A DNA stretch of 64,000 nt. It comes from a bacterium. Its GTDB lineage: Bacteria; Patescibacteriota; Minisyncoccia; UBA6257; UBA9933. This document shows, in pieces, positions 32,944 to 59,124 of this stretch. Each line of letters begins with the position of its first letter. The stretch's first letter is position 1. A program made the translations under genes and the position numbers. The notes beneath the pieces were generated by a model, which did not search any database, was not told the origin of the DNA, and saw nothing but the letters and a program-made list of their open reading frames with translations. Location: the NCBI GenBank assembly GCA_021796335.1, contig JAJYHZ010000002.1:100516-164515 (forward strand), read 5' to 3'.

Positions 32944-33350
32944 ATTTTTATTAATTTAAAATCGTTTTTAACACCTTCTATTAAATCATAATTTTCCAAT
33001 TCATCCAAGCTCATCCAGACGTAATCGGTAAAATCATTTTTATCGATTTTCACTTTGCCTGATTCATATTCGCAGATAAATTTTAAAACAATGACATGAA
33101 ACCCGTCCGGTCTGGTAAATTCGCTTTCACCGAAAAATTCGATATTGTTTTTTATAGCCAGTCCGGCCTCTTCCAGAAATTCTTTTTTCAGAGTTTCTTT
33201 AATGCTGTCAGACCCCTCGACTTTACCGCCGGGAACAGTCCACTTTCCCGGATAGGCAATTTCTTTCTCGCCTCTTTTCAGGATTAAAAACTTGCCGTCT
33301 TTTTTCAAAAAACCCGTTGCGGCGACAATGTGTAATTTAGAGGTATCCAT
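32940..33350 (-). CDS. NUDIX hydrolase
   Basis: Nudix box GGKVEGSDSIKETLKKEFLEEAGL. Confidence 0.8.
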   Translation of the reverse strand: MDTSKLHIVAATGFLKKDGKFLILKRGEKEIAYPGKWTVPGGKVEGSDSIKETLKKEFLEEAGLAIKNNIEFFGESEFTRPDGFHVIVLKFICEYESGKVKIDKNDFTDYVWMSLDELENYDLIEGVKNDFKLIKI

Positions 33351-34741: not shown

Positions 34742-34780
34742 AATAATTTAAATTAGCGGAAAAAAGGCCAAAATACAAGA

Positions 34781-35638
34781 TTAATTTTGCGTTAAAATTT
34801 TCAAATTATTATTTTCAGCGAAAATTTTAACAATGCCGTTTTTATCAGTGCGGAAAATTTTGGAATTGATTTCCGCCAATCTTTCCAAAACTGCGGGCGC
34901 GGGATGGCCGTAAGAATTTTTTCCAACCTCAATGACAGATAATTTCGGAGCCACAGCGTTTAAAAATTCCGGAGAAGAAGAAAATCTGGAGCCGTGATGG
35001 GCCACCTTTAGAATATCCGAATGCAAATCGTATTTTGAAACCAGATAATTCTCGATATTTTGGCCGATATCGCCGGTAAAAATCGCCTTCATGTCCGGAC
35101 TGATAAATTGAAGAGTTAGGATTGTGTTGTTCAAATCTTTGTCATCTAAAAAATCCGGCGGCGGGAAAAGTACGTCAAATTTGTCATTTAAATAATTTAT
35201 CTCATCGGATTCTTTTAAAGCGATAATTGGGACGTTTTTTTCTTTTAAAATATTTTTGAGCTGCTGAAAACCTCTTGCATCGGTATCGCGGCCGTTAAAA
35301 ATAAAAGCGCCAATTCGGTATCTTCTGGCGGTTTCAATAAAGCCGCCATAATGATCCATCTGTGGATGAGAAAGAACCATTAAATCTATGTAGCGGTCGT
35401 AAGGAGAGATGACTTTGGAAAAATCGGAAAGAATTTTGTTGTCGGGCCCGCCGTCGATCAGAACTTTGACATTGCCAGGCAATACAACCATTTCGCTGTC
35501 GCCCTGACCGACATCCAAAAAATAAATTTCCGGGTTTTTATTCGGCTGATTGAATATTATTTCGAACCAAATAAATCCGTTCGCAATAAGCAAAAAAAAT
35601 AAAGCAGAAATTATTTTTTTAAATCCTTGGCTTTCCAT
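34781..35638 (-). CDS. comEC_C: ComEC/Rec2-family metallo-beta-lactamase domain protein, separate gene with own membrane anchor
   Basis: VLSHPQMDHYGG MBL motif. Its ATG sits 1 nt after the TAA of the upstream channel gene. Start at MESQGFKKIISALFFLL, a signal anchor. Confidence 0.7.
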   Translation of the reverse strand: MESQGFKKIISALFFLLIANGFIWFEIIFNQPNKNPEIYFLDVGQGDSEMVVLPGNVKVLIDGGPDNKILSDFSKVISPYDRYIDLMVLSHPQMDHYGGFIETARRYRIGAFIFNGRDTDARGFQQLKNILKEKNVPIIALKESDEINYLNDKFDVLFPPPDFLDDKDLNNTILTLQFISPDMKAIFTGDIGQNIENYLVSKYDLHSDILKVAHHGSRFSSSPEFLNAVAPKLSVIEVGKNSYGHPAPAVLERLAEINSKIFRTDKNGIVKIFAENNNLKILTQN

Positions 35639-35639
35639 T

Positions 35640-37100
35640 TTATTTTTCCCCGCCTGCAACGCTACGCCCGCCATTAAAATTGCCAAGCTGTCGGGCCGGT
35701 TTCTTCATATAAATAACAAATCCGCTTAGCGCGAGGTAATAGACGAACATTAGAATTACACTCATGTTTTTTATCTGAAAAAAATTTATTTTCCCGAAAA
35801 AATTGATAACGAATATTTCATAGGAAAGGAAAATATGCACGAACCAGCCGAAAACCAAAGAGAGCGGATAAGAAATAAAGCCAATCGCGCCGAGAATAAA
35901 TCCCAAGGTCATCGTGTACGGAATGAATCCCAAAATTAGAACATTAGCAACTATGGAAATGAAAGAAAAGTTGCTGAAACTGCGGATTAAAACAGGAATA
36001 ACCGCGAGCTGGGCGGAAACGGTCGTAAGAAAATTTTCCTTCCAATCCAAAATTCCTTTTTCATCGTTCACTTTAAAAAATTTTTTAACGGCAGGCATCA
36101 GATAAACAATTCCGATTAAAGCCAGAAAAGAAAGCTGAAAGCCTATATCGAATTTTAAAATTTTAGGGTTGCCGAGCGCCATTACAAAAGCGGCGGCGGC
36201 TATGGCATTCCGGAAACTGTAGATTCTGTTAACTTGAGCGGCCAGCAAAACTATGCCGCCCATAATGGCGGCGCGGACAACCGAGGCCTGAGCGCCGGTC
36301 ATCAAGACAAAAGAAAAAATCGCGAAAATGGAAAGAATAAAGGTCAGGCGCCGGGAAAAGAAAATTCCCAAAATGACGGAAATGGCGATTCCGATGATGC
36401 TGATGTTGTATCCGGATAATGCCACAAGATGCGTTGTGCCGCTTTGACTCATGGCGTTTTTAAAATCATTTGAAAATTCGCTCTGATCGCCCAAGGTCAA
36501 TCCGGACAAAAAAGCCGCCTGATCATAAGGCAGCACCTTCTGGAAATTGCCGATTATTTTTTGCCTGAGAGAAATCAACGCGGACTTGAAAGCAGATCCG
36601 TTATTTTGAGAAATTAAATTCGCTTTGGGATAACTGGAAATCCCCAGAAGATTATCTTTGTTATAATTTTGAGAACTGGCTTGCTTAATAACTCCTTCAA
36701 AACCGACCAAATCGCCGTATCGGAAATCGTTGTTCTTCGCGATAACAGAAATTTTCCCGGCCAAAGGCTTTTGCAAATCAACCGTAATTCGGTTCCAGTT
36801 CGAATCCAGAACGATTCCTCGGAAAGGAATTTCCCGATTATAAACTATTTTGGAATTTATTTTTTGATAATTTTGAAAGATGAAAAAATAAAACGATCCC
36901 GCGGCAACAAACAGAATAAATCCGCTGAAAATTAAAATTTTTTTGGGAAATTCCTTTCTTAAGAAATAAATCGCAAGGAAAATGAGCGAAGCCAATATCG
37001 CTGATAAAAACACGGAAAGAAAAGACAGTCCAGAACTTGCGAGAAAAATTCCGAAAAGGAAAAAAGCGATTGCATAAAAAACAGAATCGTAAAGGCGCAT
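35640..37100 (-). CDS. comEC_N: ComEC/Rec2 competence channel, membrane domain
   Basis: 486 aa polytopic protein with the Competence-domain TM core (GYNISIIGIAISVILG..., MTGAQASVVRAAIMGGI). It lacks the C-terminal MBL domain, which is the next gene. Confidence 0.7.
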   Translation of the reverse strand: MRLYDSVFYAIAFFLFGIFLASSGLSFLSVFLSAILASLIFLAIYFLRKEFPKKILIFSGFILFVAAGSFYFFIFQNYQKINSKIVYNREIPFRGIVLDSNWNRITVDLQKPLAGKISVIAKNNDFRYGDLVGFEGVIKQASSQNYNKDNLLGISSYPKANLISQNNGSAFKSALISLRQKIIGNFQKVLPYDQAAFLSGLTLGDQSEFSNDFKNAMSQSGTTHLVALSGYNISIIGIAISVILGIFFSRRLTFILSIFAIFSFVLMTGAQASVVRAAIMGGIVLLAAQVNRIYSFRNAIAAAAFVMALGNPKILKFDIGFQLSFLALIGIVYLMPAVKKFFKVNDEKGILDWKENFLTTVSAQLAVIPVLIRSFSNFSFISIVANVLILGFIPYTMTLGFILGAIGFISYPLSLVFGWFVHIFLSYEIFVINFFGKINFFQIKNMSVILMFVYYLALSGFVIYMKKPARQLGNFNGGRSVAGGEK

Positions 37101-37147
37101 AAATAATTATACAAAATCCCGTAAATAAATTTACGTGCGGGATAAAA

Positions 37148-37172
37148 ATAAAGCGCTCCGAAGAGCGCCTTT
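37148..37172. terminator. terminator hairpin AAAGCGCTCCGAAGAGCGCCTTTG
   Basis: GC-rich stem after the stop of the 37190..37420 minus gene. Confidence 0.5.
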
Positions 37173-37189
37173 GTGCATAAATTAAAATC

Positions 37190-37420
37190 CTATTTAAAAA
37201 TTCTTGTCGGTATCCCGTTTAAAAATACAACGGAAAGATTACCCGGGATGCCCTTGGAAAAACAATCATTGAAGATTTCGAGGGTGCTGCGAGGAATTTT
37301 CACGACGCCATCTTTAATTCCATGCTTTTCGCTAATAAACCCCATTATGTCCTTAACATGCCGCGCCGAACCGTTAAACCCCGCGTTTTTGAGTCCCCAA
37401 ACGACTTCGTTTTTATACAA
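37190..37420 (-). CDS. HicA-like (YcfA family) small protein, possible orphan toxin
   Basis: VVWGLKNAGFNGSARHVKDIMGF...VVKIPR aligns with the HicA pattern RRWLESQGVxVxNGSNHLKL...VMPRHP. Confidence 0.35.
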   Translation of the reverse strand: MYKNEVVWGLKNAGFNGSARHVKDIMGFISEKHGIKDGVVKIPRSTLEIFNDCFSKGIPGNLSVVFLNGIPTRIFK

Positions 37421-37494
37421 GATTTCCTCCGGTTAATGGCATCAGCCAGAAATTAAAAAACTGATTCTAATTATCCGAAAAAGAATGGGGGTCG

Positions 37495-38016
37495 TCAATA
37501 TTCAATTCCTTTTTTCATGGAATGTTTGTCTTTCTGAAAAGGATGTTTGATTTCTTTCATTTCTGTCACAAGGTCAGCTTTTCTTATAAAACTTTTCGGC
37601 GCATTGCGACCGGTTAAAATAACATCTTTTTCTCCGGGAAGATTATTTAAAATTTTTAAAACATCATTGGCGGAAATTAATTTCAAATCAACCGCATTAT
37701 TCACCTCATCTAAAATTATTAAATCATTTTTCTTTTTAATCATTTTCTCGGCCAATATTAGTCCGTTTTTAGCGGCTTTTCTATGCTCAGAAAAGGGAAG
37801 CTTATCTCCGGCGATTTTTACAAAACCTTTGCCGGTTTTAATGATTTTTAAATTTTTTACCGCGGAGTTTTTTACAAAATAATCTTCGCCGCTGATCCAC
37901 GGTCCTTTGATAAACTGGATAACAACGGCTTTTTTATTCTGGCCCAAGGCCCGAATGGCCTGGCCGAGAGCCGCCGTAGTCTTCCCCTTGCCATTACCGG
38001 TAAAAATCATGATCAT
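37495..38016 (-). CDS. cobO: cob(I)yrinic acid a,c-diamide (corrinoid) adenosyltransferase CobA/CobO family
   Basis: MIMIFTGNGKGKTTAALGQAIRALG...VIQFIKG is the CobA P-loop signature. Start taken at M28 of the track ORF, whose N-terminal extension runs through the upstream palindrome. Confidence 0.7.
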   Translation of the reverse strand: MIMIFTGNGKGKTTAALGQAIRALGQNKKAVVIQFIKGPWISGEDYFVKNSAVKNLKIIKTGKGFVKIAGDKLPFSEHRKAAKNGLILAEKMIKKKNDLIILDEVNNAVDLKLISANDVLKILNNLPGEKDVILTGRNAPKSFIRKADLVTEMKEIKHPFQKDKHSMKKGIEY

Positions 38017-49563: not shown

Positions 49564-50079
49564 TTAAACAATATTAACCTCTTTTGCGGCAAAGAATTTT
49601 AAATACGGTAAAATATTTATTTGATTCAGATATTGAATAAATTCTTCCGGAAGCGCCGCTGGACCTATCCATACGCTCTTTTGCAATAATTTAAATCCTA
49701 AATTAATTAATTCTTTTCTTAGCCAATATCTTTCTTTTTTGTGCTCTTCAGGAATATCAAATATTATAATTAAGTCTTTTTTGAAACTTTTTTGATATTG
49801 CTTAAAATGTTTTAATTTTTTCTCAATCAAATTCTTTCCGATTTTTGTTGTCACCCAACCATCTTTTTTCTTTTCCAATAATCCTTTCTTTTTTAGCCTA
49901 TAAAGAGTTGTTTTGAGTGTTTGTTCTTTTATATTTTGATAATTTATCTCTGATTTATATTTATACGGAACAGCTTCAAGTCCGACCAATTTACGCCGGA
50001 TCGCTTTATAGCTAGTGTGATAACCCGAAAAGCATATTGTTAATACATCATCTGTTAAACTCATAATTTTAGTATACAT
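49564..50079 (-). CDS. winged-HTH regulator fused to a Cas2/VapD-like (PaaX_C-like) domain
   Basis: N-terminal half TLYRLKKKGLLEKKKDGWVTTKIGKNL resembles a PadR/PaaX wHTH. C-terminal DLIIIFDIPEEHKKERYWLRKELINLGFKLLQKSVWIGP matches the Cas2 core pattern (YD.. .R.. L...G.R.Q.SV). I recognise the family only tentatively. Confidence 0.45.
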   Translation of the reverse strand: MYTKIMSLTDDVLTICFSGYHTSYKAIRRKLVGLEAVPYKYKSEINYQNIKEQTLKTTLYRLKKKGLLEKKKDGWVTTKIGKNLIEKKLKHFKQYQKSFKKDLIIIFDIPEEHKKERYWLRKELINLGFKLLQKSVWIGPAALPEEFIQYLNQINILPYLKFFAAKEVNIV

Positions 50080-50165: not shown

Positions 50166-51446
50166 ATGATGGATGGTATTCCAAAATCCAGAATTTTAAT
50201 CATCGCGATTATCGGTCTGATCCTGATATTTTTTCTTTTGGCCGTATTCGGCGTTTTTACTCCGAAAAGCAACCCCTCGACAAACGCCAATCTGGTCATT
50301 TGGGGAATTGACGACGCAAATGCGGCAGTTCCAGTTTTCAGCCAATACATGCAGCAAAATCCCGGAATAAAAATCTCCTATCGGCAATTCGATCCAAATC
50401 AAATCAAAAGCCAATTCATAAACGCGCTAGCTGCCGGAACCGGGCCAGACATTGTAATGATTCATAATGATTGGATTCCGACCCAATATGACAAACTAAC
50501 TCCCGCACCGCAGGGAACGATTTCTTCATCGCAAATCCAGCAGCTTTTCGCTCCCACGGCTTCGAATGATTTTATTTTGAATTATCAGGGGACGGACTAC
50601 ATCTATGCCTTGCCGCTTTATTTGGATTCACTGGCGCTGTTTTACAATAAAGATATTTTAAACAATAAGGGCGTGGCTCTTTTGCCGACAACCTGGGACG
50701 ATTTTAAAATTCTTGTTCCCAATTTAACCGAAACGGATTTAAATCATCAGATAAAAAAGGCGGGCGCCGCAATCGGCGGTTCGGGAAAATCAATTTTGAA
50801 CGCTTCTGATTTGCTGACTTTATTGATGATGCAAAACGGCTCGGCGATTTTCAATCCACAAACCAATCTGGCCAATTTTTCGGATCAGAATGGCAGCAAT
50901 GCTCTGAATTTTTACACTCAATTCGCCAATTCTAACAGCCCTTATTACACGTGGGATGACAGCCTGGGAAGCGACCTTGATTTGTTCGGCTCAGGTCAGG
51001 TTGCAATGATATTCGCTTATGCCCGCCAAATTCCGGCCTTGCAGGAAAAGAATCCTTATTTAAACTTCGGGGTTTCCGTAATGCCCCAATTGAATCCAAA
51101 TCAACCGGTTAACTTTGCGAACTACTGGGGTCTGGCGGTTTCAAAGCAAAGCGCCAATCCGCAAGCAGCTTGGAATTTTATAATCTGGTTGACAACCGAT
51201 CAGACCAATTCCCTTTCTTATTTGAAAGCGGTGAATGAATCCCCGGCTTTGCGAACTTTGATCGCCCAGTATCAAAACGATCCCGCCTTGGGCGCATTCG
51301 CAAAACAAGCCTTGACAGCAAAAACAATTTACAATATGAATGACAATTTTCGCCAAATTTTTTCCAATATGATAGAATCTGTTTTGAGTGGAAAAGCGGA
51401 TGTTAATACGGCACTGAGTCAGGCACAAGGTGCGATGAATCCTTAA
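50166..51446 (+). CDS. ABC-type sugar-binding protein (family 1 SBP), N-terminally anchored, no cognate permease nearby
   Basis: TM anchor, then an SBP_bac_1-like fold (LVIWGIDDANAAVPVFSQYMQQNPGIKIS...). 426 aa. Confidence 0.65.
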   Translation: MMDGIPKSRILIIAIIGLILIFFLLAVFGVFTPKSNPSTNANLVIWGIDDANAAVPVFSQYMQQNPGIKISYRQFDPNQIKSQFINALAAGTGPDIVMIHNDWIPTQYDKLTPAPQGTISSSQIQQLFAPTASNDFILNYQGTDYIYALPLYLDSLALFYNKDILNNKGVALLPTTWDDFKILVPNLTETDLNHQIKKAGAAIGGSGKSILNASDLLTLLMMQNGSAIFNPQTNLANFSDQNGSNALNFYTQFANSNSPYYTWDDSLGSDLDLFGSGQVAMIFAYARQIPALQEKNPYLNFGVSVMPQLNPNQPVNFANYWGLAVSKQSANPQAAWNFIIWLTTDQTNSLSYLKAVNESPALRTLIAQYQNDPALGAFAKQALTAKTIYNMNDNFRQIFSNMIESVLSGKADVNTALSQAQGAMNP

Positions 51447-51544
51447 TATTTTGACGGCGAGAGGCAGATCAAGAAGTAAATAAATTTTTATTTACTGAGT
51501 TTGTCGAAGTATAAAAATTTTAAAATCATGTCTAAGGCGAGGTT

Positions 51545-51958
51545 ATGAAAAAAAATAATTTAATTAAACTTATTCCGATAATTTCCATTGCCAGCGCTGC
51601 TTTAAATTTTTCCCAATTCTATCAGACTTATGCCAAAGAAGATTCCACCACGGGTCTTGTTCGCTGCCACGGTCTCAATTGCAGCTTTTGCGACCTTATA
51701 TCTCTAGTCAGCAGATTGTTTAATACGGCTTATGAACTGGCCATCGCCATAGCCACTGTTTTGCTTTTGGTGGGCGCGATTCAGATTATGATTTCCGGAG
51801 CAAAACCCGGACTTTTGGAAAAAGGGAAAAAAACGATTACGGGGTCTGTTATCGGTTTGGTTATTCTGTTCGCTTCCTGGATTATTATTGACACAGTGAT
51901 TAAAATTTTAACCGGGGGAGCCGCATTCGGGCCGTGGAACGCTTTGCCGCCCTGCTAA
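51545..51958 (+). CDS. VirB2/TrbC-like pilin paralog 1
   Basis: Signal anchor plus two hydrophobic helices. LISLVSRLFNTAYELAIAIATVLLLVGAIQIM...GSVIGLVILFASWIIIDTVIKILTGGA parallels the VirB2 mature region (...KTLTGGG). Confidence 0.5.
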   Translation: MKKNNLIKLIPIISIASAALNFSQFYQTYAKEDSTTGLVRCHGLNCSFCDLISLVSRLFNTAYELAIAIATVLLLVGAIQIMISGAKPGLLEKGKKTITGSVIGLVILFASWIIIDTVIKILTGGAAFGPWNALPPC

Positions 51959-52060
51959 ATAACGAATAACTGATGGCAAGAAAAAAAATCGTCATTCTGA
52001 GAAAAACGGAGCAAAGCGAAGAATCTCATTTAAGGATAGGCTATATTTGATGCTCGCTAT

Positions 52061-52516
52061 TTGCCATTAGTTATTAATTTATTGTATATTTTGAAAATGG
52101 ATTATCTTACAGGAAAATTTTTACTGGGGATTTTTAAAATACAAAGGGTTTTTGCTTTTAATAATCCTTCCAGTAATACAGGGTCATTCAATAACCCAAC
52201 ATCTAATACGGGTTCGTTTAATAATCCAGGAGTAAACGGCGGAGGATCATCCCTTGTGATAAAACCGCCAACTTCTTACAACAATATCTACGACTTAATC
52301 AACGGCATTGCCAGCTATATAATCTGGATAGCCATACCTATTGCCACTATTATGATTATTTTCGGAGCTTACCAGATATTATTTTCAACAGGAGATCCGG
52401 CCAAGGTTAAAAAAGGAAGGGATACGATTTTATATTCTTTGGTGGGGTTAATGGTGGCATTGCTTGTTAAGGGAATTATTTCTATAATTAAGCAAGTTTT
52501 AGGAGTAAATAACTAA
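52061..52516 (+). CDS. VirB2/TrbC-like pilin paralog 2 (with NNPSSNTGSF repeats)
   Basis: Same two-helix C-terminal architecture (IIWIAIPIATIMIIFGAYQILFSTGDPAKVKKG...VGLMVALLVKGIISIIKQ). Low-complexity Asn/Ser/Gly repeats precede it. Confidence 0.5.
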   Translation: MPLVINLLYILKMDYLTGKFLLGIFKIQRVFAFNNPSSNTGSFNNPTSNTGSFNNPGVNGGGSSLVIKPPTSYNNIYDLINGIASYIIWIAIPIATIMIIFGAYQILFSTGDPAKVKKGRDTILYSLVGLMVALLVKGIISIIKQVLGVNN

Positions 52517-52522
52517 AATATA

Positions 52523-52900
52523 TTGAAAGGTCGCCAGAAATTATTCTATTTTATGAAAAAATTAGGAATCGGATTAATGGCAGCAGTTTTGCCGGCATTG
52601 GCAGCGGCGCAAACCGCTCCGCTAAATCAAGGTGGCATTCCTCCATCACTACCCGACACGAGCGTTAATTCATATGGCGGATTGATTGGATTTTTAAGCA
52701 CTGTCGGCAACTGGGCGTTTGGAATTTTGTTGGCTTTAGCAGTTTTATTCATTATTTATGCCGCTTATCTTTATCTTTTCTCGCAAGGAGGAGATAACAC
52801 CTCAAAAGCCAAGAGTGTTATTATTTACGCGATAGTTGCAATCGTAGTGGCTATTATTGCAAAAGGATTAGTGACAATTGCTCAAACCTTAGTTCACTGA
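52523..52900 (+). CDS. VirB2/TrbC-like pilin paralog 3
   Basis: Signal peptide MKKLGIGLMAAVLPALAAAQ, then AFGILLALAVLFIIYAAYLYLFSQGGDNTSKAKSVIIYAIVAIVVAIIAKGLVTIAQ. Confidence 0.5.
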   Translation: MKGRQKLFYFMKKLGIGLMAAVLPALAAAQTAPLNQGGIPPSLPDTSVNSYGGLIGFLSTVGNWAFGILLALAVLFIIYAAYLYLFSQGGDNTSKAKSVIIYAIVAIVVAIIAKGLVTIAQTLVH

Positions 52901-53096
52901 TCATTAAAATAAGAACAAAATTCCCCCAAAAGGGGATTTTTGTTTGGGTTTATTTAACTTAAGTTATTGGCTATTAGCTAGAGAATATTTTAACAGCTCA
53001 AATAAACAGCTAAAACTTTACAGTTCAACAGTAAATATAATTGATTCGTATAAATAATAAATTTATCCCATATATAAAGTTTATGTGCAGGAAATA

Positions 53097-53130
53097 AAAA
53101 GCCCTCGCTCCGTTAACGGATGAGGGCTAT
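53097..53130. terminator. terminator hairpin AAAAGCCCTCGCTCCGTTAACGGATGAGGGCTAT
   Basis: Downstream of the stop (53163) of the GC-rich minus-strand operon. Confidence 0.55.
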
Positions 53131-53162
53131 ATTCAACCTCCTTTCCTGAAAGATTTTATTTT

Positions 53163-53963
53163 TTACGACAATGATTTAATGGTCACCCTCCCTCCTACTG
53201 GCCCGGAGAACCGGATGACATCGCCGGAATGCACAGGCCAGTTTTGCTGATGAATCTCCACACGGTCATGCTCCACACCATTGGCGCTATAGATATGGGC
53301 CTGGGTGCCGTCCGGCCCTTTTACATCAGTTTTTCCGGCGGGGAAAGCCTTTGTAAAAAATGGCTTAGAGAGCTGGTCAAGGCCTTTCAGCTCGCAGGAC
53401 CACACCTTATAAGACGGCGTGGCGGTGGGAATTGAACTGGCCGCTATCTCTTCTTCATGCCCAGGCCTTATCTTATTCCAAGCCCATTTAAATGAGCTTG
53501 GGAAGATTATTGCCCAGACCACCCCGATGATTACAAGATAAGACACGGCTTTGAAAAACTTCTTCGCAGCCGGACCAGTCCCGTCAATCGACAACAAGAC
53601 AATCGGAACGGCCACAATAGCAACCATTCCCGGATGAAACGGTAGCCACGGCGAGAATATCGCCGCGAACATGACGACCACCAGCTCATAAAATATAATG
53701 CTGGCAATCCATGCTCGCGCCCTTTGGCCGATAATAGCAAGGAGTAAGGACCAGCCGATGGTCATAAAATACAGAAGTGCCAGTACCACCGGCACAAGCC
53801 CCACTATCGCTGTAGCGACCGGGCTGCCGTAATTAATTGCTACGATAACCGTGGCAATGGGCCAAAAAATTATTATCCGCAGGATCCATCTGGCCCACCG
53901 ATTGCCAGTATTCCATAGACGTACAACCAACTGCCATAATTCCTGTATTGACAATAAAATCAT
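53163..53963 (-). CDS. hypothetical membrane protein (GC-rich operon, gene 4)
   Basis: 4-5 TM helices, then a ~110-aa soluble C-terminal domain. GC-rich codon usage unlike the rest of the window. Confidence 0.55.
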   Translation of the reverse strand: MILLSIQELWQLVVRLWNTGNRWARWILRIIIFWPIATVIVAINYGSPVATAIVGLVPVVLALLYFMTIGWSLLLAIIGQRARAWIASIIFYELVVVMFAAIFSPWLPFHPGMVAIVAVPIVLLSIDGTGPAAKKFFKAVSYLVIIGVVWAIIFPSSFKWAWNKIRPGHEEEIAASSIPTATPSYKVWSCELKGLDQLSKPFFTKAFPAGKTDVKGPDGTQAHIYSANGVEHDRVEIHQQNWPVHSGDVIRFSGPVGGRVTIKSLS

Positions 53964-54562
53964 CTTATCCCCCTTTGGTCGAGAAAATTATTGAGGTGGC
54001 CTAAAACCCCGGCCACCCTGACATCGGCCTGCTGAAGCACAGCGGGCGCCTGTCGTATTCCCCTCCACGTCATCTGGAGGTACTGCTGAACCACATTGTG
54101 GTCCAAAAACTCCAGTATCCTGTCCCTTTCGGCGTCGGTCATGTGACCGATCTGCTTAAAAACTTCAAGCAGTTCGGTCTCGGGATCAAAATTCCCGAGC
54201 TTGAGATGACCAATCTTTCTTAGCAGTTCCTCTCCGTCCGGCCCGCCGATGCGGAGGATCATGAGGTAGAGTCGGGATAATAACTCCACGGCTTTGTTTT
54301 CATGCGGAACCCGTTGCAACCAGTCCAAAATATTCTGAGCCGCTTCCGGATCCGCATCCGCAAGAACTCTTTCGAGGAAGTGATATAATTTTTCGCGATG
54401 ATTCTCTTCTAATTCTTTCTGAAGAGTCTCACCGCCTTTTTTTACCCCCTCCTCGATAATGACTTTTGTGTGCTTTTTCACCTGTTCCTTTAATTCCTCG
54501 ACTATCGCGGTAACGACACCCGCGAAGCCAATCTCCTTCCAACTAATTCCAAATACACCCAT
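53960..54562 (-). CDS. hypothetical helical protein (GC-rich operon, gene 3)
   Basis: 200-aa ORF overlapping neighbours by 4 and 1 nt (translationally coupled). No family assignable. Confidence 0.55.
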   Translation of the reverse strand: MGVFGISWKEIGFAGVVTAIVEELKEQVKKHTKVIIEEGVKKGGETLQKELEENHREKLYHFLERVLADADPEAAQNILDWLQRVPHENKAVELLSRLYLMILRIGGPDGEELLRKIGHLKLGNFDPETELLEVFKQIGHMTDAERDRILEFLDHNVVQQYLQMTWRGIRQAPAVLQQADVRVAGVLGHLNNFLDQRGIR

Positions 54563-54563
54563 A

Positions 54564-55163
54564 TCAACCTCCTAAGTAAACTTTAACGGTTTGAATCGCC
54601 TTGCCGGCAATAAACCGTATTGTTTTTATACGTTCTGCCAGAGTGACTGAAATAGTTACTTCGGCATATCCTTCGCCATTGGCCGTAAGAACCTTTGGCT
54701 TTTTGCTATTTTCGTACATCTGAATCTGGAGGTACGGTATTGGCTTGTCTTCGGTGCTGACAACAATCGGGCGGAGCAGATATTTTCCTTTTTCAAGGAA
54801 TTTTTGCTGCACCCGGATGCACCCGACCTCAACCTTTGCGGGTTTTGGCGGCTCAGGAATGGACACGGAGTGGTAAGCTTCGCCGTGTCTGTTCTCCTCG
54901 ATAGCCTCAACCCTGTAAAATCCGGGTTTATCGAAAAAGATTTTTAGGCTTGCCTTGCCGTTGTTATCTGTCCGTTCCGGAGATTCACAATTGGTTCCAT
55001 TAATCCTGAATTGTACAGGATCATTGGAAACCGGCCAACTACCTTTTTTTACATCAACCAGCGCATGGATAAACCAGCGCTGACCTTCCTTTTGCGGATC
55101 CGTCAATGTCAGAAAAATCCTGACTGGCGGATCTGGTCTTCTTTGTTGTCGTGGTGTTGGCAT
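54564..55163 (-). CDS. hypothetical beta-sandwich (Ig-like repeat) protein (GC-rich operon, gene 2)
   Basis: Two internal repeats of strand-rich sequence (VQFRINGTN...YRVEAIEEN and IQMYENSKKPKVLTANGEGYAEVTISV). 199 aa. Confidence 0.5.
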   Translation of the reverse strand: MPTPRQQRRPDPPVRIFLTLTDPQKEGQRWFIHALVDVKKGSWPVSNDPVQFRINGTNCESPERTDNNGKASLKIFFDKPGFYRVEAIEENRHGEAYHSVSIPEPPKPAKVEVGCIRVQQKFLEKGKYLLRPIVVSTEDKPIPYLQIQMYENSKKPKVLTANGEGYAEVTISVTLAERIKTIRFIAGKAIQTVKVYLGG

Positions 55164-55394
55164 TTGAATCTCCTTTTTAATTTTTATCTTTCTCTCAGGT
55201 TTTTAGTTTTTAAAGACCTAAATTCCAGAGCGAGGATATATCCAGACTTGGATATATCTGTTCTGAAATTTTCTATATTATACCACTATTTGTTTTAAAG
55301 TCAATACCTCCGTTATGGTTCACCAGCTTGGAATCGGCCAGAAAAAAGGCGGCTTTAGAAAGCCGCCATCTATATAAAACAAGGGGAAATGAAA

Positions 55395-55892
55395 TTACCG
55401 CTTAATCCCTCTTTTTTCAAGCTCGAGCCGAACTCCTTTAATAAGTCCAGCGACGTTTTCGTCCAGTTGCCTGAACGAGTCGCCGGCGTTTTCGGCGAAA
55501 GTTCTTCCCTGAAGAACTTTGAGGCGAGTTTTTAAATCGCCTATATCGAGCTCGGCAAAGCCATTCAGTGCCTGCTTGATTTCTTCCGGTGTTCTGGAAG
55601 AAGCCAGGAAACTGACATGACCCGCCAATCCGTTGATTAAGCCATCGCCTTCTTTGTTTTTTCCGAGTTCGGACAAGTGCCCGAACATCTTGTTTTGCAT
55701 CACCGAATCCAGCTGACCGATGAAAGCAAATAGCTGATTCCGATCGGTTGTTATAAATGTCTTTGGGTGCTCTGTCATAAGCGCGCCCTTTGCGCCCACG
55801 CCACTCGCTGCTGTTTCTCTTAAAAAACTCTTTGCAAAATCTATTAAGCCCTTTTTAAAAGTACTCATATCTTTTCCTCCTTGGAAAAGCAA
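55395..55892 (-). CDS. hypothetical protein (GC-rich operon, gene 1)
   Basis: 165 aa. The start may be MSTFKKGL at 55869. No family assignable. Confidence 0.5.
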   Translation of the reverse strand: MLFQGGKDMSTFKKGLIDFAKSFLRETAASGVGAKGALMTEHPKTFITTDRNQLFAFIGQLDSVMQNKMFGHLSELGKNKEGDGLINGLAGHVSFLASSRTPEEIKQALNGFAELDIGDLKTRLKVLQGRTFAENAGDSFRQLDENVAGLIKGVRLELEKRGIKR

Positions 55893-55950
55893 TTAATATC
55901 ATTATACAATTATTTGCTTTTTAGTCAAAATTATTTAAAGTTCTATAAAC

Positions 55951-56031
55951 GGGCAGGTGGCGAAATGGCAAACGCACTAGCTTTAGGAGCTAGCGCCGCA
56001 AGGCTTGCGGGTTCAAGTCCCGCCCTGCCCA
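55951..56031 (+). tRNA. tRNA-Leu(TAG)
   Basis: GGGCAGG acceptor pairs with CCTGCCC. Anticodon loop TTTAGGA (TAG), long variable arm, GGTTCAAGTCC T-arm. Confidence 0.85.
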
Positions 56032-56080
56032 CTATTTTTAATTTTTAATTTACTACTATTATTCTGCTATTATTTTTCTC

Positions 56081-56114
56081 AATCAAATTTTGAGCGATCG
56101 CTCAAAATTTGATT
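56081..56114 (+). repeat. 34-bp palindrome element (copy 5, no DnaA box)
   Basis: AATCAAATTTTGAGCGATCGCTCAAAATTTGATT at 56081-56114, then TCATATTTT instead of GGTTATCCACA. It lies between the tRNA-Leu 3' end and the recombinase stop. Confidence 0.9.
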
Positions 56115-56130
56115 TCATATTTTTAGAAAG

Positions 56131-57036
56131 CTAACTTCTCCTGCGAGCGTGAAAAGTCTTGTGAATTTCTTTCAACTCTTTATTAGTTAAATGCGTATAA
56201 ATCTGCGTCGTTGAAATATTAGAATGACCAAGCAGTTCTTGCACCGAACGCAAGTCAGCTCCGTTGATTAAAAGATCGGTAGCAAAGGAATGACGCAATA
56301 AATGCGGATGAACTTTTTTTGAAATGCCGGCCTTGCGGGAATAGAAATCAACCAGGCGCTGGATTGCGCGCGGAATAATCCGGCCGATGACTTTCGGGCT
56401 TTTCGCCTTGGTCAAACTTATAAACAACGCTTCTTCGGCATCAGAGCGCTTATCTAAATACTCTCTGATAAATTTTTTGGCGCGATCGGAAAGAAACACA
56501 ACCCGCAACTTACTCCCCTTTCCGCGGACACTTAGTTCTCCTCTTTCCAAATCAAAATAACGATTTAAACTGCAAAGTTCTGAAACGCGCAGCCCGGTGG
56601 AAAACAATAATTCCAAAATTGCCTTATCGCGGAGAGATTTCAAATCATCTCCATTCGGAGAACTCAGCAATCTTTCAAGTTCATCATATTCAATAGTTTC
56701 TATTTGGCGCGTCGGAATTTTTGGAAGCTCGATTTTATCCGGCGATAAAGTTGAAAAATCATTTTTATTTAGATATTTCAGAAAATTTCTTATGGCAATA
56801 ATGTAATAACTTTGCGTTGTCTTTTTAAACGATTCACCTTCAATATTTTCAAGCCGGGCAAGATAGATCCGGAAATCGCGAATTTTATCTATTGCAATAT
56901 CCGATTCATTTTTAATATTCCCAAACTCAAAAAATTTTTTTAAATATCTTTCGTAATTAGCCCGGGTTTTAGGCGAGCGATTTTTTTCAATTTCCAAGTA
57001 GTCCAAATAGTTTTTAAGAAGACGGTTTATTTCCAT
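56131..57036 (-). CDS. xerD: XerC/XerD-type tyrosine recombinase
   Basis: N-terminal LDYLEIEKNRSPKTRANYERYLKKF and C-terminal HPHLLRHSFATDLLINGADLRSVQELLGHSNISTTQIYTHL (R..HxxR..Y). Start taken at MEINRLL; the longer track ORF reads through a parS-like inverted repeat. Confidence 0.8.
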   Translation of the reverse strand: MEINRLLKNYLDYLEIEKNRSPKTRANYERYLKKFFEFGNIKNESDIAIDKIRDFRIYLARLENIEGESFKKTTQSYYIIAIRNFLKYLNKNDFSTLSPDKIELPKIPTRQIETIEYDELERLLSSPNGDDLKSLRDKAILELLFSTGLRVSELCSLNRYFDLERGELSVRGKGSKLRVVFLSDRAKKFIREYLDKRSDAEEALFISLTKAKSPKVIGRIIPRAIQRLVDFYSRKAGISKKVHPHLLRHSFATDLLINGADLRSVQELLGHSNISTTQIYTHLTNKELKEIHKTFHARRRS

Positions 57037-57176
57037 TAGGATAATCATACAATAATCTGTCGCAAAATAAAATGTTTCACGAATTATGTGAAACATTTTT
57101 CCCATAGTTTCCCCAATTAGTATCAGTTCTAATTAAATAGGCATTTTAGAGGTATTTTAGCAAAAACGGCAAAACC

Positions 57177-57185
57177 TGTGGATAA
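57177..57185 (-). promoter_or_regulatory. perfect DnaA box (TGTGGATAA, TTATCCACA on the minus strand)
   Basis: Exact 9-mer consensus. A weaker GGGGGATAA follows at 57197-57205. It lies in the AT-rich non-coding region with the parS array. Confidence 0.6.
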
Positions 57186-57354
57186 TTAGGCAAAGTGGGG
57201 GATAACTCGGTCAAAATGAGGTAGTTTGCCAGATTTTAGAAATGAATTTCTCTTCATGAAATCTATCTACTTTTGTAGATAGCTATAAACTAATTCAAGT
57301 TCGTGAAATTTAGCTATTATGAGTTGTTTTTCCCCCAAAAATAATCTATTCAAA

Positions 57355-57392
57355 TCTGTAAATGATGTTTCACGTGAAACATCATTTACAGA
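57355..57392. promoter_or_regulatory. parS: parS site 1 within a 38-bp perfect palindrome
   Basis: TGTTTCACGTGAAACA at 57366-57381 is the exact consensus parS for chromosomal ParB/Spo0J. Flanks TCTGTAAATGA and TCATTTACAGA extend perfect symmetry to 38 bp. Confidence 0.85.
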
Positions 57393-57404
57393 AAAGTTCC
57401 CTTT

Positions 57405-57442
57405 TTTGTCAGGCATGTTTCACGTGAAACATGCCTGACAAA
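57405..57442. promoter_or_regulatory. parS: parS site 2 within a 38-bp perfect palindrome
   Basis: TGTTTCACGTGAAACA at 57416-57431. Flanks TTTGTCAGGCA and TGCCTGACAAA. Confidence 0.85.
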
Positions 57443-57457
57443 TTTTAATGTTTCGCG

Positions 57458-57491
57458 TGTCATCAATGTTTCACGTGAAACATTGATGACA
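57458..57491. promoter_or_regulatory. parS: parS site 3 within a 34-bp perfect palindrome
   Basis: TGTTTCACGTGAAACA at 57467-57482. Flanks TGTCATCAA and TTGATGACA. Confidence 0.85.
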
Positions 57492-57507
57492 AATTTTTCT
57501 CTCTTTT

Positions 57508-57545
57508 TGTGTCACGAGTGTTTCACGTGAAACACTCGTGACACA
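57508..57545. promoter_or_regulatory. parS: parS site 4 within a 38-bp perfect palindrome
   Basis: TGTTTCACGTGAAACA at 57519-57534. Flanks TGTGTCACGAG and CTCGTGACACA. Confidence 0.85.
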
Positions 57546-57745
57546 TTTATCAATTATTCATTTATTAATATTTCACGCAAAACATTATTTCAAAAAACGA
57601 GAGGCATAGGAATATATAGATTTTGTTTTTGTTTTTTATTAAGGAATTTCATTCTTAAAATTCGTAGATCCTGGATAAATCCTTTGAATAATTCTTAGCA
57701 TTTATTTTTATAATTCTAATCGTTTCCTCCCTAAATAAAGAATAA

Positions 57746-57761
57746 TGTTTCGCGTGAAACA
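57746..57761. promoter_or_regulatory. parS: parS variant (1 mismatch: TGTTTCGCGTGAAACA)
   Basis: Single central A to G change from the consensus. Further half-sites lie at 57067-57099 (halves split by 7 nt), 57446-57458 and 57815-57838 (two direct ATGTTTCAC). Confidence 0.6.
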
Positions 57762-57781
57762 TATCCCTATAAAAAGTCTTT

Positions 57782-57802
57782 AATTCGGCAATTTGCCGAA
57801 TT
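57782..57802 (+). terminator. hairpin AATTCGGCAA-T-TTGCCGAATT plus T-run
   Basis: Perfect 10-bp stem followed by ACTTTTTT, about 50 bp upstream of yraN. It may end a + strand transcript from the parS region or attenuate yraN. Confidence 0.4.
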
Positions 57803-57854
57803 ACTTTTTTAATTAATGTTTCACAAATGTTTCACACTTATTTATACTTAATGC

Positions 57855-58238
57855 ATGAATAAATTAGAAACAGGAAATAAAGGGGAAGATCTGGCCTGTA
57901 AATATTTAAAAGAAAAGGGCTATAGAATTATTGAAAGAAATTTCAGACTTCCCTGGGGAGAGATTGATATTATTGCCAAGGCGCCCAACAAAACAGTTGC
58001 CTTTGTGGAAGTTAAGACTATGTATAATAATTCCTGCATAGGATCGGAAATATGTTTGATGCCGGAAGACCAGTTAAGCGATTCAAAATTAAGGAAATTC
58101 AAACGGATTGCCGAAGAGTATGCGAATGAATTTCCAGTAATAATTGATGATGCGGCTGGCTGGCGCTTGGATTTAATTGCGATTTCATTAAATGACAAAA
58201 AAAATTCGATAAGGCATTACGAAAATATTGATTTATAA
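57855..58238 (+). CDS. yraN: YraN/UPF0102-family predicted endonuclease
   Basis: GNKGEDLACKYLKEKGYRIIERNFRLPWGEIDIIA...VAFVEVK is the UPF0102 signature. 127 aa. Confidence 0.7.
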   Translation: MNKLETGNKGEDLACKYLKEKGYRIIERNFRLPWGEIDIIAKAPNKTVAFVEVKTMYNNSCIGSEICLMPEDQLSDSKLRKFKRIAEEYANEFPVIIDDAAGWRLDLIAISLNDKKNSIRHYENIDL

Positions 58239-58241
58239 AAA

Positions 58242-58264
58242 AGAAAGGCGGCATCATGTGCCGC
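58242..58264. terminator. bidirectional terminator GGCGGCATCATGTGCCGCC
   Basis: Lies between the convergent yraN and response-regulator genes. Confidence 0.55.
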
Positions 58265-58613
58265 CGTTTATCACCTCAAAAAGTTTGCTAAACTCAAGGG
58301 GTTTATAAAGAATATTAATATCTTTCATATTTAATCTCCCCTTGTTTATTTCCTCGATACACCAATCTGGTTTCCCAGTCATTAAGGCAAATTTTATCCA
58401 TGGCCGGACTTGTGCTACATACGCCAAAACATCAAGTCCGTCTCTCTTCGGCATTTCCAGATCGGTTAAAACAAAATCAAAATCATGCTGCCTAAAGGCA
58501 TTAATTCCCTCCTCTCCATCGGCAGCTGTTATTACCTCCCAGCCGGCCATTTCAAAAAAATCGCGCAATACCTCGACATTAATTGGCCTGTCATCAACAA
58601 CTAAAATTCTCAA
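58254..58613 (-). CDS. single-domain response regulator (CheY-like receiver)
   Basis: MRILVVDDRPINVEVLRDFFEMAGWEVITAADGEEG...FVLTDLEMPKRDG...K. 119 aa. No cognate kinase in the window. Confidence 0.75.
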   Translation of the reverse strand: MRILVVDDRPINVEVLRDFFEMAGWEVITAADGEEGINAFRQHDFDFVLTDLEMPKRDGLDVLAYVAQVRPWIKFALMTGKPDWCIEEINKGRLNMKDINILYKPLEFSKLFEVINGGT

Positions 58614-58674
58614 AGAATTCTCCTTTCCTGTTTTAAATCGGCTTTAAATAAAGCTGGCACTATCCTATCAATAT

Positions 58675-59124
58675 TTATTTAATTTGTAAAATGCGTTCTG
58701 TCTCTTTTTTACCGTAATCCAGATAAATAAGGATTTTGTTTTTGGGAATAATTTTGGATATTTTTTCCGGCCATTCTATAAGAATGATGTTTTGCGGATC
58801 GGAAATTATTTTTTTAAAATTTAAATCCAATATTTCTTTCGGATTTTTTATGCGATACGCATCTATATGGTGAATATTTTTATAACCTGAAGATCGAAGT
58901 TTATAGCTCTTCATGATTACAAAAGTGGGAGAGGTGATTTTTGATTTTATTCCGAGCCCTCGCATAAATCCCTGGATAAAAGTTGTTTTTCCGGCGCCAA
59001 GATTGCCCTTAAATAGAATAATCAGGGCCTGATCTTCAAAAATTTTTTTTTTGGCAATTTCAGATGCAAATATCTTTGCGACTTCTTGAGTGTGGACGGA
59101 AGAAATAGTTCGAATTTTTGCCAT
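58675..59124 (-). CDS. tsaE: tRNA threonylcarbamoyladenosine biosynthesis protein TsaE
   Basis: P-loop GNLGAGKTTFIQGFMRGLG...SPTFVI is the YjeE/TsaE signature. Confidence 0.8.
   Translation of the reverse strand: MAKIRTISSVHTQEVAKIFASEIAKKKIFEDQALIILFKGNLGAGKTTFIQGFMRGLGIKSKITSPTFVIMKSYKLRSSGYKNIHHIDAYRIKNPKEILDLNFKKIISDPQNIILIEWPEKISKIIPKNKILIYLDYGKKETERILQIK

What the first reader, a model, noticed from the sequence alone, without database searches (positions are those of the whole stretch)
53163..55892. Compositionally foreign (GC-rich) four-gene operon of unknown proteins beside tRNA-Leu, xerD and the parS array
Genes 55892->53163 (165, 199, 200 and 266 aa) are tightly coupled, with 4-nt and 1-nt overlaps. 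They have markedly higher G+C than everything around them; six-frame artefact ORFs on the opposite strand are one symptom. They encode a membrane protein with a soluble C-terminal domain, an Ig-like double beta-sandwich protein and two helical proteins. None matches a family I recognise. The block abuts a tRNA-Leu gene and a tyrosine recombinase, and sits next to three VirB2-like pilin genes. A membrane effector plus soluble partners is compatible with a horizontally acquired defence, secretion-accessory or surface module, but function is undetermined.
Basis: partly seen in the sequence, partly recalled or inferred. Interest (0 to 1): 0.7.

Follow-up and report, generated by a model that had tools for sequence, protein, structure and literature searches.

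The report
Swappable membrane gene cassette beside pilins
The GC-rich block is the rarer of two interchangeable membrane-protein cassettes that sit in one fixed chromosomal slot next to pilin genes in a group of ultra-small (Patescibacteria) bacteria. It was exchanged between lineages by recombination, it is not a tRNA-integrated island, nothing marks it as a defence system, and its function is still unknown.

Summary
The genes, their elevated G+C (47.1% against 39.6%, the highest 2.7-kb stretch in the window) and their neighbours are real. But the block is 1+3 transcription units, not one four-gene operon.

The organism is a Paceibacteria-class Patescibacterium. In about 50 related genomes the order gyrA, SBP, VirB2-like pilin array, [slot], tRNA-Leu(UAG), xerD is conserved.

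- **Usual occupant (type A):** an SPFH/Band-7 protein plus a small membrane partner with an outward-facing ~70-aa beta domain.
- **Occupant here and in about 15 other loci (type B):** a tandem Big_1 Ig protein (B2), a helical protein (B3) and a 5-TM protein with a C-terminal beta domain (B4).
- **B3 and B4 belong together:** they are fused in several homologues.
- **The two types are linked:** some B4 relatives carry the same beta domain as the SPFH partners.
- **Distribution:** type B is scattered among type A on a gyrA tree. L020 and L021 are 77-80% identical in DNA up to both cassette edges, and only the cassette differs.
- **Composition:** cassette GC3 departs from the host in both directions across 28 loci.

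So this is a recombination hot spot. tRNA-Leu and xerD are core synteny. Defence, phage and plasmid searches found nothing. B3 and B4 have no Pfam, PDB or fold relatives.

The parts
55901..55928 (-). Promoter of B1 (TTGACT, 16 nt, TATAAT)
   Evidence: 11 of 12 consensus positions. 22 of 28 nt match the B2 promoter (read).
55395..55868 (-). B1: 157-aa helical protein, a probable remote paralogue of B3 and a separate transcription unit
55348..55367 (-). Intrinsic terminator after B1
   Evidence: 8-bp stem, 6 GC pairs, T-run.
55277..55304 (-). Promoter of the B2-B3-B4 operon (TTGACT, 16 nt, TG-TATAAT)
   Evidence: It begins TTGACTTT, like the conserved slot promoter of sister loci.
55164..55272 (-). 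Structured 5' leader of the B2-B3-B4 operon (long hairpin GAUAUAUCCA/UGGAUAUAUC near the 5' end)
   Evidence: MFE -25.5 kcal/mol, z = -3.6, 0 of 200 shuffles as stable. Sister loci have a hairpin at the same place. No Rfam family matches.
54564..55163 (-). B2: 199-aa protein of two Big_1 (intimin/invasin-type) Ig-like domains. Arg/Pro-rich N-terminus, no signal peptide.
   Evidence: Pfam Big_1 at 28 bits, below the cut-off. The family profile hits intimin 6tpl at E 4e-8 over both domains. Homologues sit upstream of B3 in L023, L036, L060, L086, L097, L099, L100 and L103.
53960..54562 (-). B3: 200-aa all-helical cytoplasmic protein. It is the detached N-terminal domain of B4-type proteins.
53163..53963 (-). 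B4: 266-aa membrane protein. It has the N-terminal motif LW-TGNRW-RW, 5 TM helices (N-in, C-out by the positive-inside rule) and a ~90-aa beta-rich C-terminal domain.
   Evidence: AF2 secondary structure (low confidence, pLDDT 55). Family alignment. TM-domain HMM hits L099 at 6e-30, L102 at 1e-23 and L023 at 2e-14. The start overlaps the B3 stop (ATGA).
53096..53127 (-). Terminator hairpin after B4 (GCCCTC..TCCG-TTAA-CGGA..GAGGGC, then TTTTT)
   Evidence: Read directly. The scan missed it because of its long compound loop.
55951..56032 (+). tRNA-Leu(UAG), transcribed divergently from the cassette. This is the conserved boundary of the slot.
   Evidence: It is at the same place in about 30 sister loci and in the loci found through B3 homologues.
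51545..52900 (+). Array of three VirB2-like (PF18895) pilin genes, convergent with the cassette. This is the other conserved boundary of the slot.
   Evidence: The same arrangement occurs in more than 50 loci and in L097-L100.
56131..57105 (-). XerD-type tyrosine recombinase. It is core synteny, not part of the cassette.
   Evidence: Pfam. 59-77% identical orthologues sit at the same position in 29 loci.

Best explanation
**What it is.** The block is the 'type B' occupant of an ancient, conserved chromosomal slot in Paceibacteria. The slot lies between a VirB2-like pilin array and a divergently transcribed tRNA-Leu(UAG). It holds one of two mutually exclusive membrane cassettes, or is empty.
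- Type A is the common one: an SPFH/Band-7 scaffold protein plus a small membrane partner that exposes a ~70-aa beta domain outside the cell.
- Type B is the one here: a tandem Big_1 Ig protein (B2), a helical cytoplasmic protein (B3) and a 5-TM protein (B4) ending in an outward-facing beta domain.

**What is shown.**
- B3 and B4 are two halves of one unit. They are translationally coupled here and fused in several homologues.
- Some B4 relatives carry the same outside domain as the SPFH partners.
- The two cassette types replace each other cleanly between closely related genomes.
- Cassette base composition mismatches the host in both directions.
- Together these indicate that this lineage obtained type B by homologous-recombination exchange with another Paceibacterium of higher G+C, displacing an SPFH pair. 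B1 is an extra, diverged B3-like gene with a near-duplicate promoter.

**What is inferred.**
- Because it occupies the same slot as the SPFH pair, with a similarly built promoter and leader, type B probably does the same job by other means.
- In this picture a membrane-anchored complex has a cytoplasmic helical scaffold (B3, with an N-terminal amphipathic helix and a basic tail). The scaffold docks on B4.
- B4 displays a small, fast-evolving beta domain on the cell surface next to the pili.
For: **Conserved slot**
- Synteny across 80 loci.
- SPFH in the slot: Pfam Band_7 in 11 proteins tested; 21 by HMM.
- Partner beta domain: HMM in 15 proteins.

**Type B members**
- tblastn and HMM hits in L020, L023, L025, L031, L036, L044, L060 and L073.
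- L086 and L087 from a metagenome scan.
- The order Ig, B3, B4 next to pilins and tRNA-Leu(UAG) in loci found independently through B3 homologues.

**Fusions**
- L036: B3 HMM 4e-18 and TM HMM 3e-6.
- P0009: found by phmmer at 1.7e-6.
- L023: TM HMM 2e-14.

**Shared outside domain**
- The C-terminus of L087 (B4 family) is 49% identical over 72 aa to the SPFH partner of L006, E 1e-21.
- L031 and L020 carry the canonical domain at 9e-27 and 7e-20.

**Exchange**
- gyrA tree.
- L020 against L021 by blastn.
- Cassette GC and GC3 against the host in 28 loci.
- Empty slots in L053, L074, L075 and L078.

**Topology**
- AF2 helices plus loop charges read from the sequence.

**Negative searches**
- No defence, phage or plasmid signal.
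Against: - No function is demonstrated for either cassette type. 'Same job as the SPFH pair' rests only on positional equivalence and the shared partner domain.
- B4's own C-terminal domain does not reach significance against the partner-domain HMM or by profile-profile comparison (E 0.008, probability 5%). It is only positionally equivalent.
- B3 shows no similarity to SPFH.
- No donor is identified. The best B3 and B4 homologues are only 37-43% identical, so the transfer is either not recent or from an unsampled lineage.
- Cassettes are GC-richer than the host in 25 of 28 loci, which could partly reflect an intrinsic bias rather than transfer.
- B2 lacks any signal peptide, which is unusual for Big_1 domains and unexplained.
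- The B4 model is of low confidence (pLDDT 55).
Confidence: 0.55

Rival explanations
1. Pilus or T4SS accessory module. The cassette, of either type, specifically serves the adjacent VirB2-like pilin array, for example by anchoring or assembling the pilus or presenting a co-adhesin. Its turnover tracks pilin diversification.
For: - The cassette is immediately convergent with a pilin array in every locus seen. This includes loci retrieved through B3 homology rather than gyrA synteny.
- The pilins are also fast-evolving: 24-64% identity, against 61-80% for gyrA.
- VirB2 arrays are known to be variable and, in one Saccharimonadia strain, essential (PMC12102498).
- The outside domain would sit beside the pili.
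Against: - The slot is empty in L053, L074, L075 and L078, although pilins are present.
- The cassette is convergent with the pilins, not co-transcribed.
- There is no similarity to any T4SS component in Pfam or PDB.
- No virB4 lies in the 64-kb window.
Confidence: 0.2
2. Anti-phage defence or abortive-infection system, with B4 as a membrane-disrupting effector and B2, B3 and B1 as sensors or regulators, sitting in a defence hot spot.
For: - It is a variable hot spot with cassette turnover and compositional mismatch.
- A membrane protein plus soluble partners is a common defence layout (own knowledge).
- The families are rare and uncharacterised.
Against: - PADLOC is empty for B1-B4 and for the type A proteins.
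- Only two cassette types occupy the slot across a whole class, rather than a diverse assortment of systems.
- The commonest occupant is an SPFH pair.
- The neighbours are housekeeping genes.
- No nuclease, NTPase, TIR or similar domain is present.
- PADLOC-DB dates from 2023, so novel systems are not excluded.
Confidence: 0.1
3. Vertically inherited ancestral polymorphism. Both cassettes are old, lineages kept one or the other, and the G+C excess is intrinsic (amino-acid or expression bias) rather than foreign.
For: - Type B orthologues are very diverged, at 17-43% identity.
- No close donor was found in 5.8e9 or 1.84e9 proteins.
- Cassettes are GC-richer than the host in 25 of 28 loci.
Against: - GC3, not only overall GC, deviates. 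In GC-rich hosts it deviates downward: L052 z = -4.5, L060 z = -1.9.
- Type B is scattered as single tips among type A. Sorting would need many independent losses at one site.
- L020 and L021 share 77-80% DNA identity up to both cassette edges and no detectable similarity inside.
Confidence: 0.1
4. Integrative genomic island inserted at tRNA-Leu by the neighbouring tyrosine recombinase.
For: tRNA, integrase-family gene and GC-atypical genes are adjacent.
Against: - tRNA-Leu(UAG) and xerD are conserved at this position in about 30 species, whatever the cassette type and even when the slot is empty.
- The block lies on the 5' side of the tRNA.
- No direct repeat of the tRNA end flanks it.
- xerD orthologues are 59-77% identical, which is typical of a core gene.
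- There are no phage or plasmid relatives.
Confidence: 0.03

Closest known systems
SPFH (stomatin/flotillin/HflK-C) with NfeD-type partner operons, e.g. E. coli qmcA-ybbJ, B. subtilis yuaF-floT, Pyrococcus PH1511/PH1510 (own knowledge)
   Same: - It occupies the same slot, on the same strand and behind a similarly built promoter and leader, as a genuine SPFH + small-membrane-partner pair in the closest relatives.
- The layout is the same: a cytoplasmic scaffold-like protein followed by a membrane protein with a small C-terminal beta domain.
- Some B4 relatives share that beta domain with the SPFH partners.
   Different: - There is no SPFH domain in B1-B4.
- The partner domain is not detectably NfeD (PF01957) or any solved structure, and it is predicted to face outward.
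- B4 has five TM helices.
- An extra Big_1 protein is present.
Intimin/invasin Big_1 tandem Ig domains (PF02369; PDB 6tpl, 1f00, 1cwv)
   Same: The B2 family profile aligns over both domains with intimin D00-D0 (E 4e-8). Several family members pass Big_1 or Big_3_5 with E of 3e-9 to 4e-9.
   Different: - B2 is a stand-alone 199-aa protein.
- It has no signal peptide, no beta-barrel anchor and no lectin tip in any of about 10 homologues.
- B2 itself scores below the Pfam cut-off.
VirB2-like pilin arrays of Patescibacteria (PMC12102498)
   Same: The cassette lies directly beside such an array (3 genes, PF18895). Both are fast-evolving.
   Different: The paper's main text does not mention SPFH, Band 7, stomatin or flotillin genes, tRNA or XerD ('spfh' also absent). 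B1-B4 are not pilins or T4SS components.
Defence islands and recombination hot spots flanked by core genes
   Same: Conserved flanks, variable content, compositional mismatch and an occasionally empty site.
   Different: Only two alternative cassettes are seen, neither with defence-family hits. The link to pilin genes is constant.

Membership tests
SPFH/Band-7 + NfeD operon | One protein carries an SPFH (PF01145) domain | tested here: not met
   No Band_7 hit in B1-B4. hhalign of the B3 family against the slot SPFH proteins gives probability 0.4%. No SPFH homologue elsewhere in the window.
SPFH/Band-7 + NfeD operon | The partner carries an NfeD C-terminal OB-fold domain (PF01957) | tested here: not met
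   No NfeD hit for B4 or for 15 type A partners at E up to 0.5. No NfeD structure among the PDB profile hits. A fold-level comparison could not be run, because no confident model exists.
SPFH/Band-7 + NfeD operon | Two adjacent co-oriented genes: a scaffold followed by a membrane partner | tested here: met
   B3 is followed by B4 with a 4-nt overlap. The position is the same as the SPFH-partner pair in relatives.
tRNA-targeting integrative island | Direct repeat of the tRNA 3' end (attL/attR) bounding the island | tested here: not met
   No such repeat in 51000-59000. The block lies 5' of the tRNA.
tRNA-targeting integrative island | Integrase and tRNA adjacency specific to island-bearing genomes | tested here: not met
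   tRNA-Leu(UAG) and xerD are conserved in about 30 species with any cassette type or none.
Known anti-phage defence systems (PADLOC-DB 2.0) | At least one component matches a defence-system HMM | tested here: not met
   Only SduA at E 0.035, which is noise. None for type A proteins or fused type B proteins.
Known anti-phage defence systems (PADLOC-DB 2.0) | Confers protection against phage | not testable with these tools
   Needs an experiment.
Big_1 Ig-like domain proteins (B2 only) | Sequence match to PF02369 or to intimin/invasin Ig domains | tested here: met
   B2 scores 28.2 bits, below the gathering threshold of 34.9. The family profile hits intimin 6tpl at E 4e-8. Three of 6 members hit Big_1 with E down to 3.6e-9.
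Big_1 Ig-like domain proteins (B2 only) | Secreted or surface location (signal peptide or anchor) | tested here: not met
   No hydrophobic N-terminal segment in B2 or its homologues.
T4SS components | Homology to VirB/Trs/Prg proteins | tested here: not met
   No such Pfam, PDB or fold hit for B1-B4. Only the neighbouring pilins match PF18895.

The most novel reading that the evidence does not exclude
B3 + B4 (with the Big_1 protein B2) form a previously undescribed membrane scaffold system that can functionally stand in for an SPFH-partner pair. Both are dedicated to the cell-surface and pilus apparatus through which episymbiotic Patescibacteria contact their hosts. The slot would then be a horizontally shuffled host-interaction locus defining three new protein families (B3, the B4 TM domain and the outward beta domain).
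Probability: 0.3. Interest if true: 0.65.

Novelty: new variant of a known kind. Interest (0 to 1): 0.45.

Why it matters
Patescibacteria have tiny genomes and live attached to other cells. Genes kept next to their variable VirB2-like pilin arrays are candidates for envelope or host-contact functions.

This analysis turns an 'orphan GC-rich operon' into a defined system:
- a slot conserved across the class;
- two mutually exclusive cassettes that share an outward-facing domain;
- clear evidence of exchange between lineages.

It gives three uncharacterised families (B3: 16 representatives in 1.84 billion proteins) a context and a testable hypothesis, namely an in-place replacement of an SPFH scaffold by unrelated proteins. 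It also removes the tempting but wrong reading of a tRNA-integrated defence island.

Tried and rejected
- **Word-seeded homology searches** for B2, B3 and B4 returned only the proteins themselves.
- **Pfam, NCBIfam, PHROGs and PADLOC** on B1-B4 gave nothing beyond a weak Big_1 hit.
- **AF2 of B4** from a single sequence was too poor for a fold search (pLDDT 55).
- **PDB profile searches** for the B3 family, the partner-domain proteins and the B4 family found nothing significant.
- **B3 as a diverged SPFH:** rejected.
- **B4 C-terminus as the canonical partner domain:** not demonstrable.
- **B1 as a B3 paralogue:** not seen with a small HMM, weakly supported with a better one.
- **IMG/VR scans** with B4 and B3 alignments found none. 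Two alignment queries were too diverse to scan.
- **Phage and plasmid tblastn:** none.
- **Rfam on the region:** only the tRNA.
- **att repeats:** none.
- **Literature:** no paper links SPFH to Patescibacteria pilin arrays or to defence in a relevant way.
Full report

The four minus-strand ORFs exist at 53163-55892.
- The block has 47.1% G+C. This is the highest of all 2.7-kb windows in the 64 kb. Windows outside the block average 39.6% (sd 2.5) and reach at most 46.0%.
- Its dinucleotide signature is also an outlier: delta* 99 against 54 +/- 16, in the top 1%.
- GC3 is 0.56-0.57 for the last two genes, against a window mean of 0.41 (sd 0.07). It is only 0.45-0.48 for the first two.

The neighbours are as described:
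- tRNA-Leu(UAG) at 55951-56032;
- a tyrosine recombinase and three PF18895 T4SS-type pilins;
- a parS array.

The sequence does not support one four-gene operon.
- The first gene, B1, has its own near-consensus promoter (55928-55901) and a strong terminator (55367-55348).
- A second near-consensus promoter (55304-55277) and a 109-nt structured leader follow (z = -3.6).
- Then come B2, B3 and B4, tightly packed: a 1-nt spacer, then a 4-nt ATGA overlap. A terminator hairpin at 53096-53127 closes the unit.
- B1 most likely starts at the ATG at 55868 (157 aa), as in public gene calls.

**2. No known families**

Pfam, NCBIfam, PHROGs and PADLOC gave nothing for B1, B3 and B4, and a sub-threshold Big_1 hit for B2. 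Word-seeded searches of 5.8 billion proteins found only the proteins themselves. These occur identically on 7-8 contigs of the same species from several samples, including GCA_021833205.1.

**3. The organism and the slot**

A gyrA-based scan of one genome per species returned 80 loci, all Patescibacteria of the Paceibacteria group: Wolfe-, Lipton-, Harrison-, Jorgensen- and Azambacteria. The best gyrA identity is 80%.

tblastn of the window's proteins against these loci shows a conserved gene order. It runs S1, metallo-beta-lactamase-fold gene, small ORF, gyrA, SBP, pilin array (3-6 genes), a variable stretch of 0.3-5 kb, tRNA-Leu(UAG), xerD.
- The tRNA and xerD (59-77% identical) are present whatever lies in the variable stretch.
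- They therefore do not mark an integration event.
- No att-like repeat exists, and the block lies 5' of the tRNA.

**4. What the slot holds**

In most loci the slot carries, on the strand convergent with the pilins, a 300-420-aa protein followed by a 120-215-aa protein.
- The larger one is an SPFH/Band-7 protein (Pfam; 21 loci by HMM).
- The smaller one has one or two TM segments, with positive charges on the N-terminal or loop side, and a ~70-aa C-terminal beta domain. The domain's motif is WS-W--LPP...F-dG...W-G...FR-RG--G-a-I.
- That domain matches neither NfeD nor any Pfam or PDB entry.
- I call this cassette type A. The window's closest relatives (L006, L072, L010, L013, L016) all carry it.

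**5. The window's cassette is a second type**

Weak but significant tblastn hits to B2, B3 and B4 appeared in the same slot of other loci. Iterated HMMs define a type B cassette in L020, L023, L025, L031, L036, L044, L060 and L073.

A full phmmer scan of 1.84 billion representatives with B3 found only 16 hits, one of them (P0005) a spurious repeat match.

The genomic contexts of those hits were retrieved independently of gyrA synteny. They again show a Big_1 protein, then B3, then a B4-like membrane protein. Convergent pilin genes lie just downstream and tRNA-Leu(UAG) just upstream. Supporting scores:
- Ig HMM: 4e-19 to 6e-47.
- B4 TM HMM: 1e-15 to 6e-30.
- A metagenome scan added two groundwater contigs with the same order.

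**6. B3 and B4 are one unit**

B3-like and B4-like parts are fused in L036 (B3 HMM 4e-18, TM HMM 3e-6) and in P0009 (406 aa). Weaker support exists for L023 and L025.

The fusion places B3 at the cytoplasmic N-terminus. With the five helices predicted for B4 and the loop charges (+2 to +3 on the N-terminus, loop 2 and loop 4; 0 on loops 1 and 3), this puts the C-terminal beta-rich domain outside the cell.

The B4 family shares three features:
- an N-terminal LW-TGNRW-RW motif;
- a conserved intramembrane Glu;
- a P-x-x-(D/N)P motif.

**7. The two cassette types are linked**

- L087 has a B4-type TM domain (38% identity to the B4 N-terminus, E 5e-7). Its C-terminal domain is 49% identical (E 1e-21) to the SPFH partner of L006.
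- L031 and L020 are polytopic proteins next to an Ig gene and a B3 gene respectively. They carry the canonical partner domain at E 9e-27 and 7e-20.
- The window's own B4 C-terminus resembles these only at its ends (WS..., IRFSGPVGGRVTI). It is not significant by HMM or hhalign, so I treat it as positionally equivalent only.

**8. Evidence for exchange**

- On a gyrA neighbour-joining tree, type B loci are scattered singly among type A loci. The window pairs with L006 (type A) and L020 with L021 (type A).
- L020 and L021 align at 77-80% DNA identity through the last pilin gene, and again from the cassette promoter through the tRNA and xerD. The two cassette genes between have no detectable similarity.
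- Across 28 loci, cassette GC and GC3 often differ from the host's other genes. They are usually higher (25 of 28).
- In some hosts they are lower: L052 has GC3 0.35 against 0.57, and L060 has 0.47 against 0.65.
- The slot is empty in L053, L074, L075 and L078.

This is the pattern of a recombination hot spot with cassette exchange among related genomes. It explains the window's G+C anomaly. No close donor was found, since the best homologues are only 37-43% identical. Either the event is not recent or the donor is unsampled.

**9. The individual proteins**

- **B2.** The family profile aligns over both domains with the intimin Big_1 tandem of 6tpl (E 4e-8). None of about 10 homologues has a signal peptide, which is unexplained.

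**10. Defence, phage and plasmid readings**

- PADLOC is empty for both cassette types.
- There are no relatives in INPHARED phages, PLSDB plasmids or IMG/VR.
- The window is otherwise housekeeping: a Clp-family AAA+ ATPase, RNase J, aminoacyl-tRNA synthetases, an amidase-family protein, a competence (ComEC-family) protein, ribosomal proteins and EF-G.
- No virB4 lies in the window.

**11. Interpretation**

Shown:
- a conserved slot;
- two alternative cassettes that share an outward domain;
- a B3-B4 unit;
- exchange between lineages;
- a constant association with the pilin array and tRNA-Leu(UAG).

Inferred: type B is a functional stand-in for the SPFH + partner pair. It would be a membrane-organising or anchoring complex that exposes a small, fast-evolving domain at the surface beside the pili. 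This rests on position and on the shared domain, not on any functional data. A pilus-specific accessory role, or an unrecognised defence role, remains possible.

**12. Novelty**

The published survey of Patescibacteria T4SS and VirB2 arrays does not mention these neighbours (PMC12102498). B3 and B4 have no curated family. I rate this a new variant of a known kind: an SPFH-partner-like membrane cassette in a recombination hot spot. The interest is moderate.

Noticed in passing
window 57352-57762: parS array: four perfect TGTTTCACGTGAAACA sites at 50-52-nt spacing, plus one copy with a single mismatch at 57746-57761 and a further degenerate repeat unit at 57564-57585. The four perfect sites each sit inside a longer 34-38-nt perfect palindrome whose outer arms differ between copies. 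Similar arrays of 4-6 sites occur in L035 and L046.
   Followed up: partly
L089 (ERZ27233564 contig), junction at window 54374: This contig is 100% identical to window 57509 down to 54374 (inside B3). It then continues into an RF-1 (prfA-like) region that is not in the window. It is either a MEGAHIT chimera or a strain with a rearrangement that truncates B3 and B4.
   Followed up: partly
L095 ends at window 53162; L096 at 52949; L090 at 54892: Several short contigs of the same species break at or next to the cassette. L095 stops exactly one base before the B4 stop codon. This is compatible with assembly-graph branching from strain-level cassette variation.
   Followed up: no
window 55164-55304, and upstream of cassettes in L014, L020, L021, L023, L041, L072: Sister loci share a slot promoter, TTGACTTTT...TATGCTATA(A/T)T, followed by a leader of roughly 90-140 nt with a hairpin near the 5' end. 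The hairpin sequences differ while the position is kept. The window's leader folds with z = -3.6. No Rfam family matches.
   Followed up: partly
window 49564-50079 (-): The PaaX-like gene (PF20803 Cas2-like middle domain) has the lowest G+C in the window (28.1%, GC3 0.24). It lies between gyrA and SBP here, but next to xerD in L014 and L072, and is absent from most loci. It may be a second, AT-rich mobile or variable gene.
   Followed up: no
L072 10351-11324; L073 8608-10001: The gyrA match is split by about 1.0 kb and 1.4 kb in these two relatives. This suggests an intein or intron inside gyrA.
   Followed up: no
L006 11083 onward, against window 32600-38000: In the closest relative, synteny breaks exactly at tRNA-Leu(UAG). 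The DNA beyond it corresponds to window 32.6-38 kb, inverted. So a chromosomal rearrangement has an end point at this tRNA.
   Followed up: no
window 52061-52516 (+): The middle pilin gene encodes a tandem peptide repeat in its N-terminal part (NPSSNTGSFNNPTSNTGSFNNP). Public gene calls start it later, giving 86 aa.
   Followed up: no
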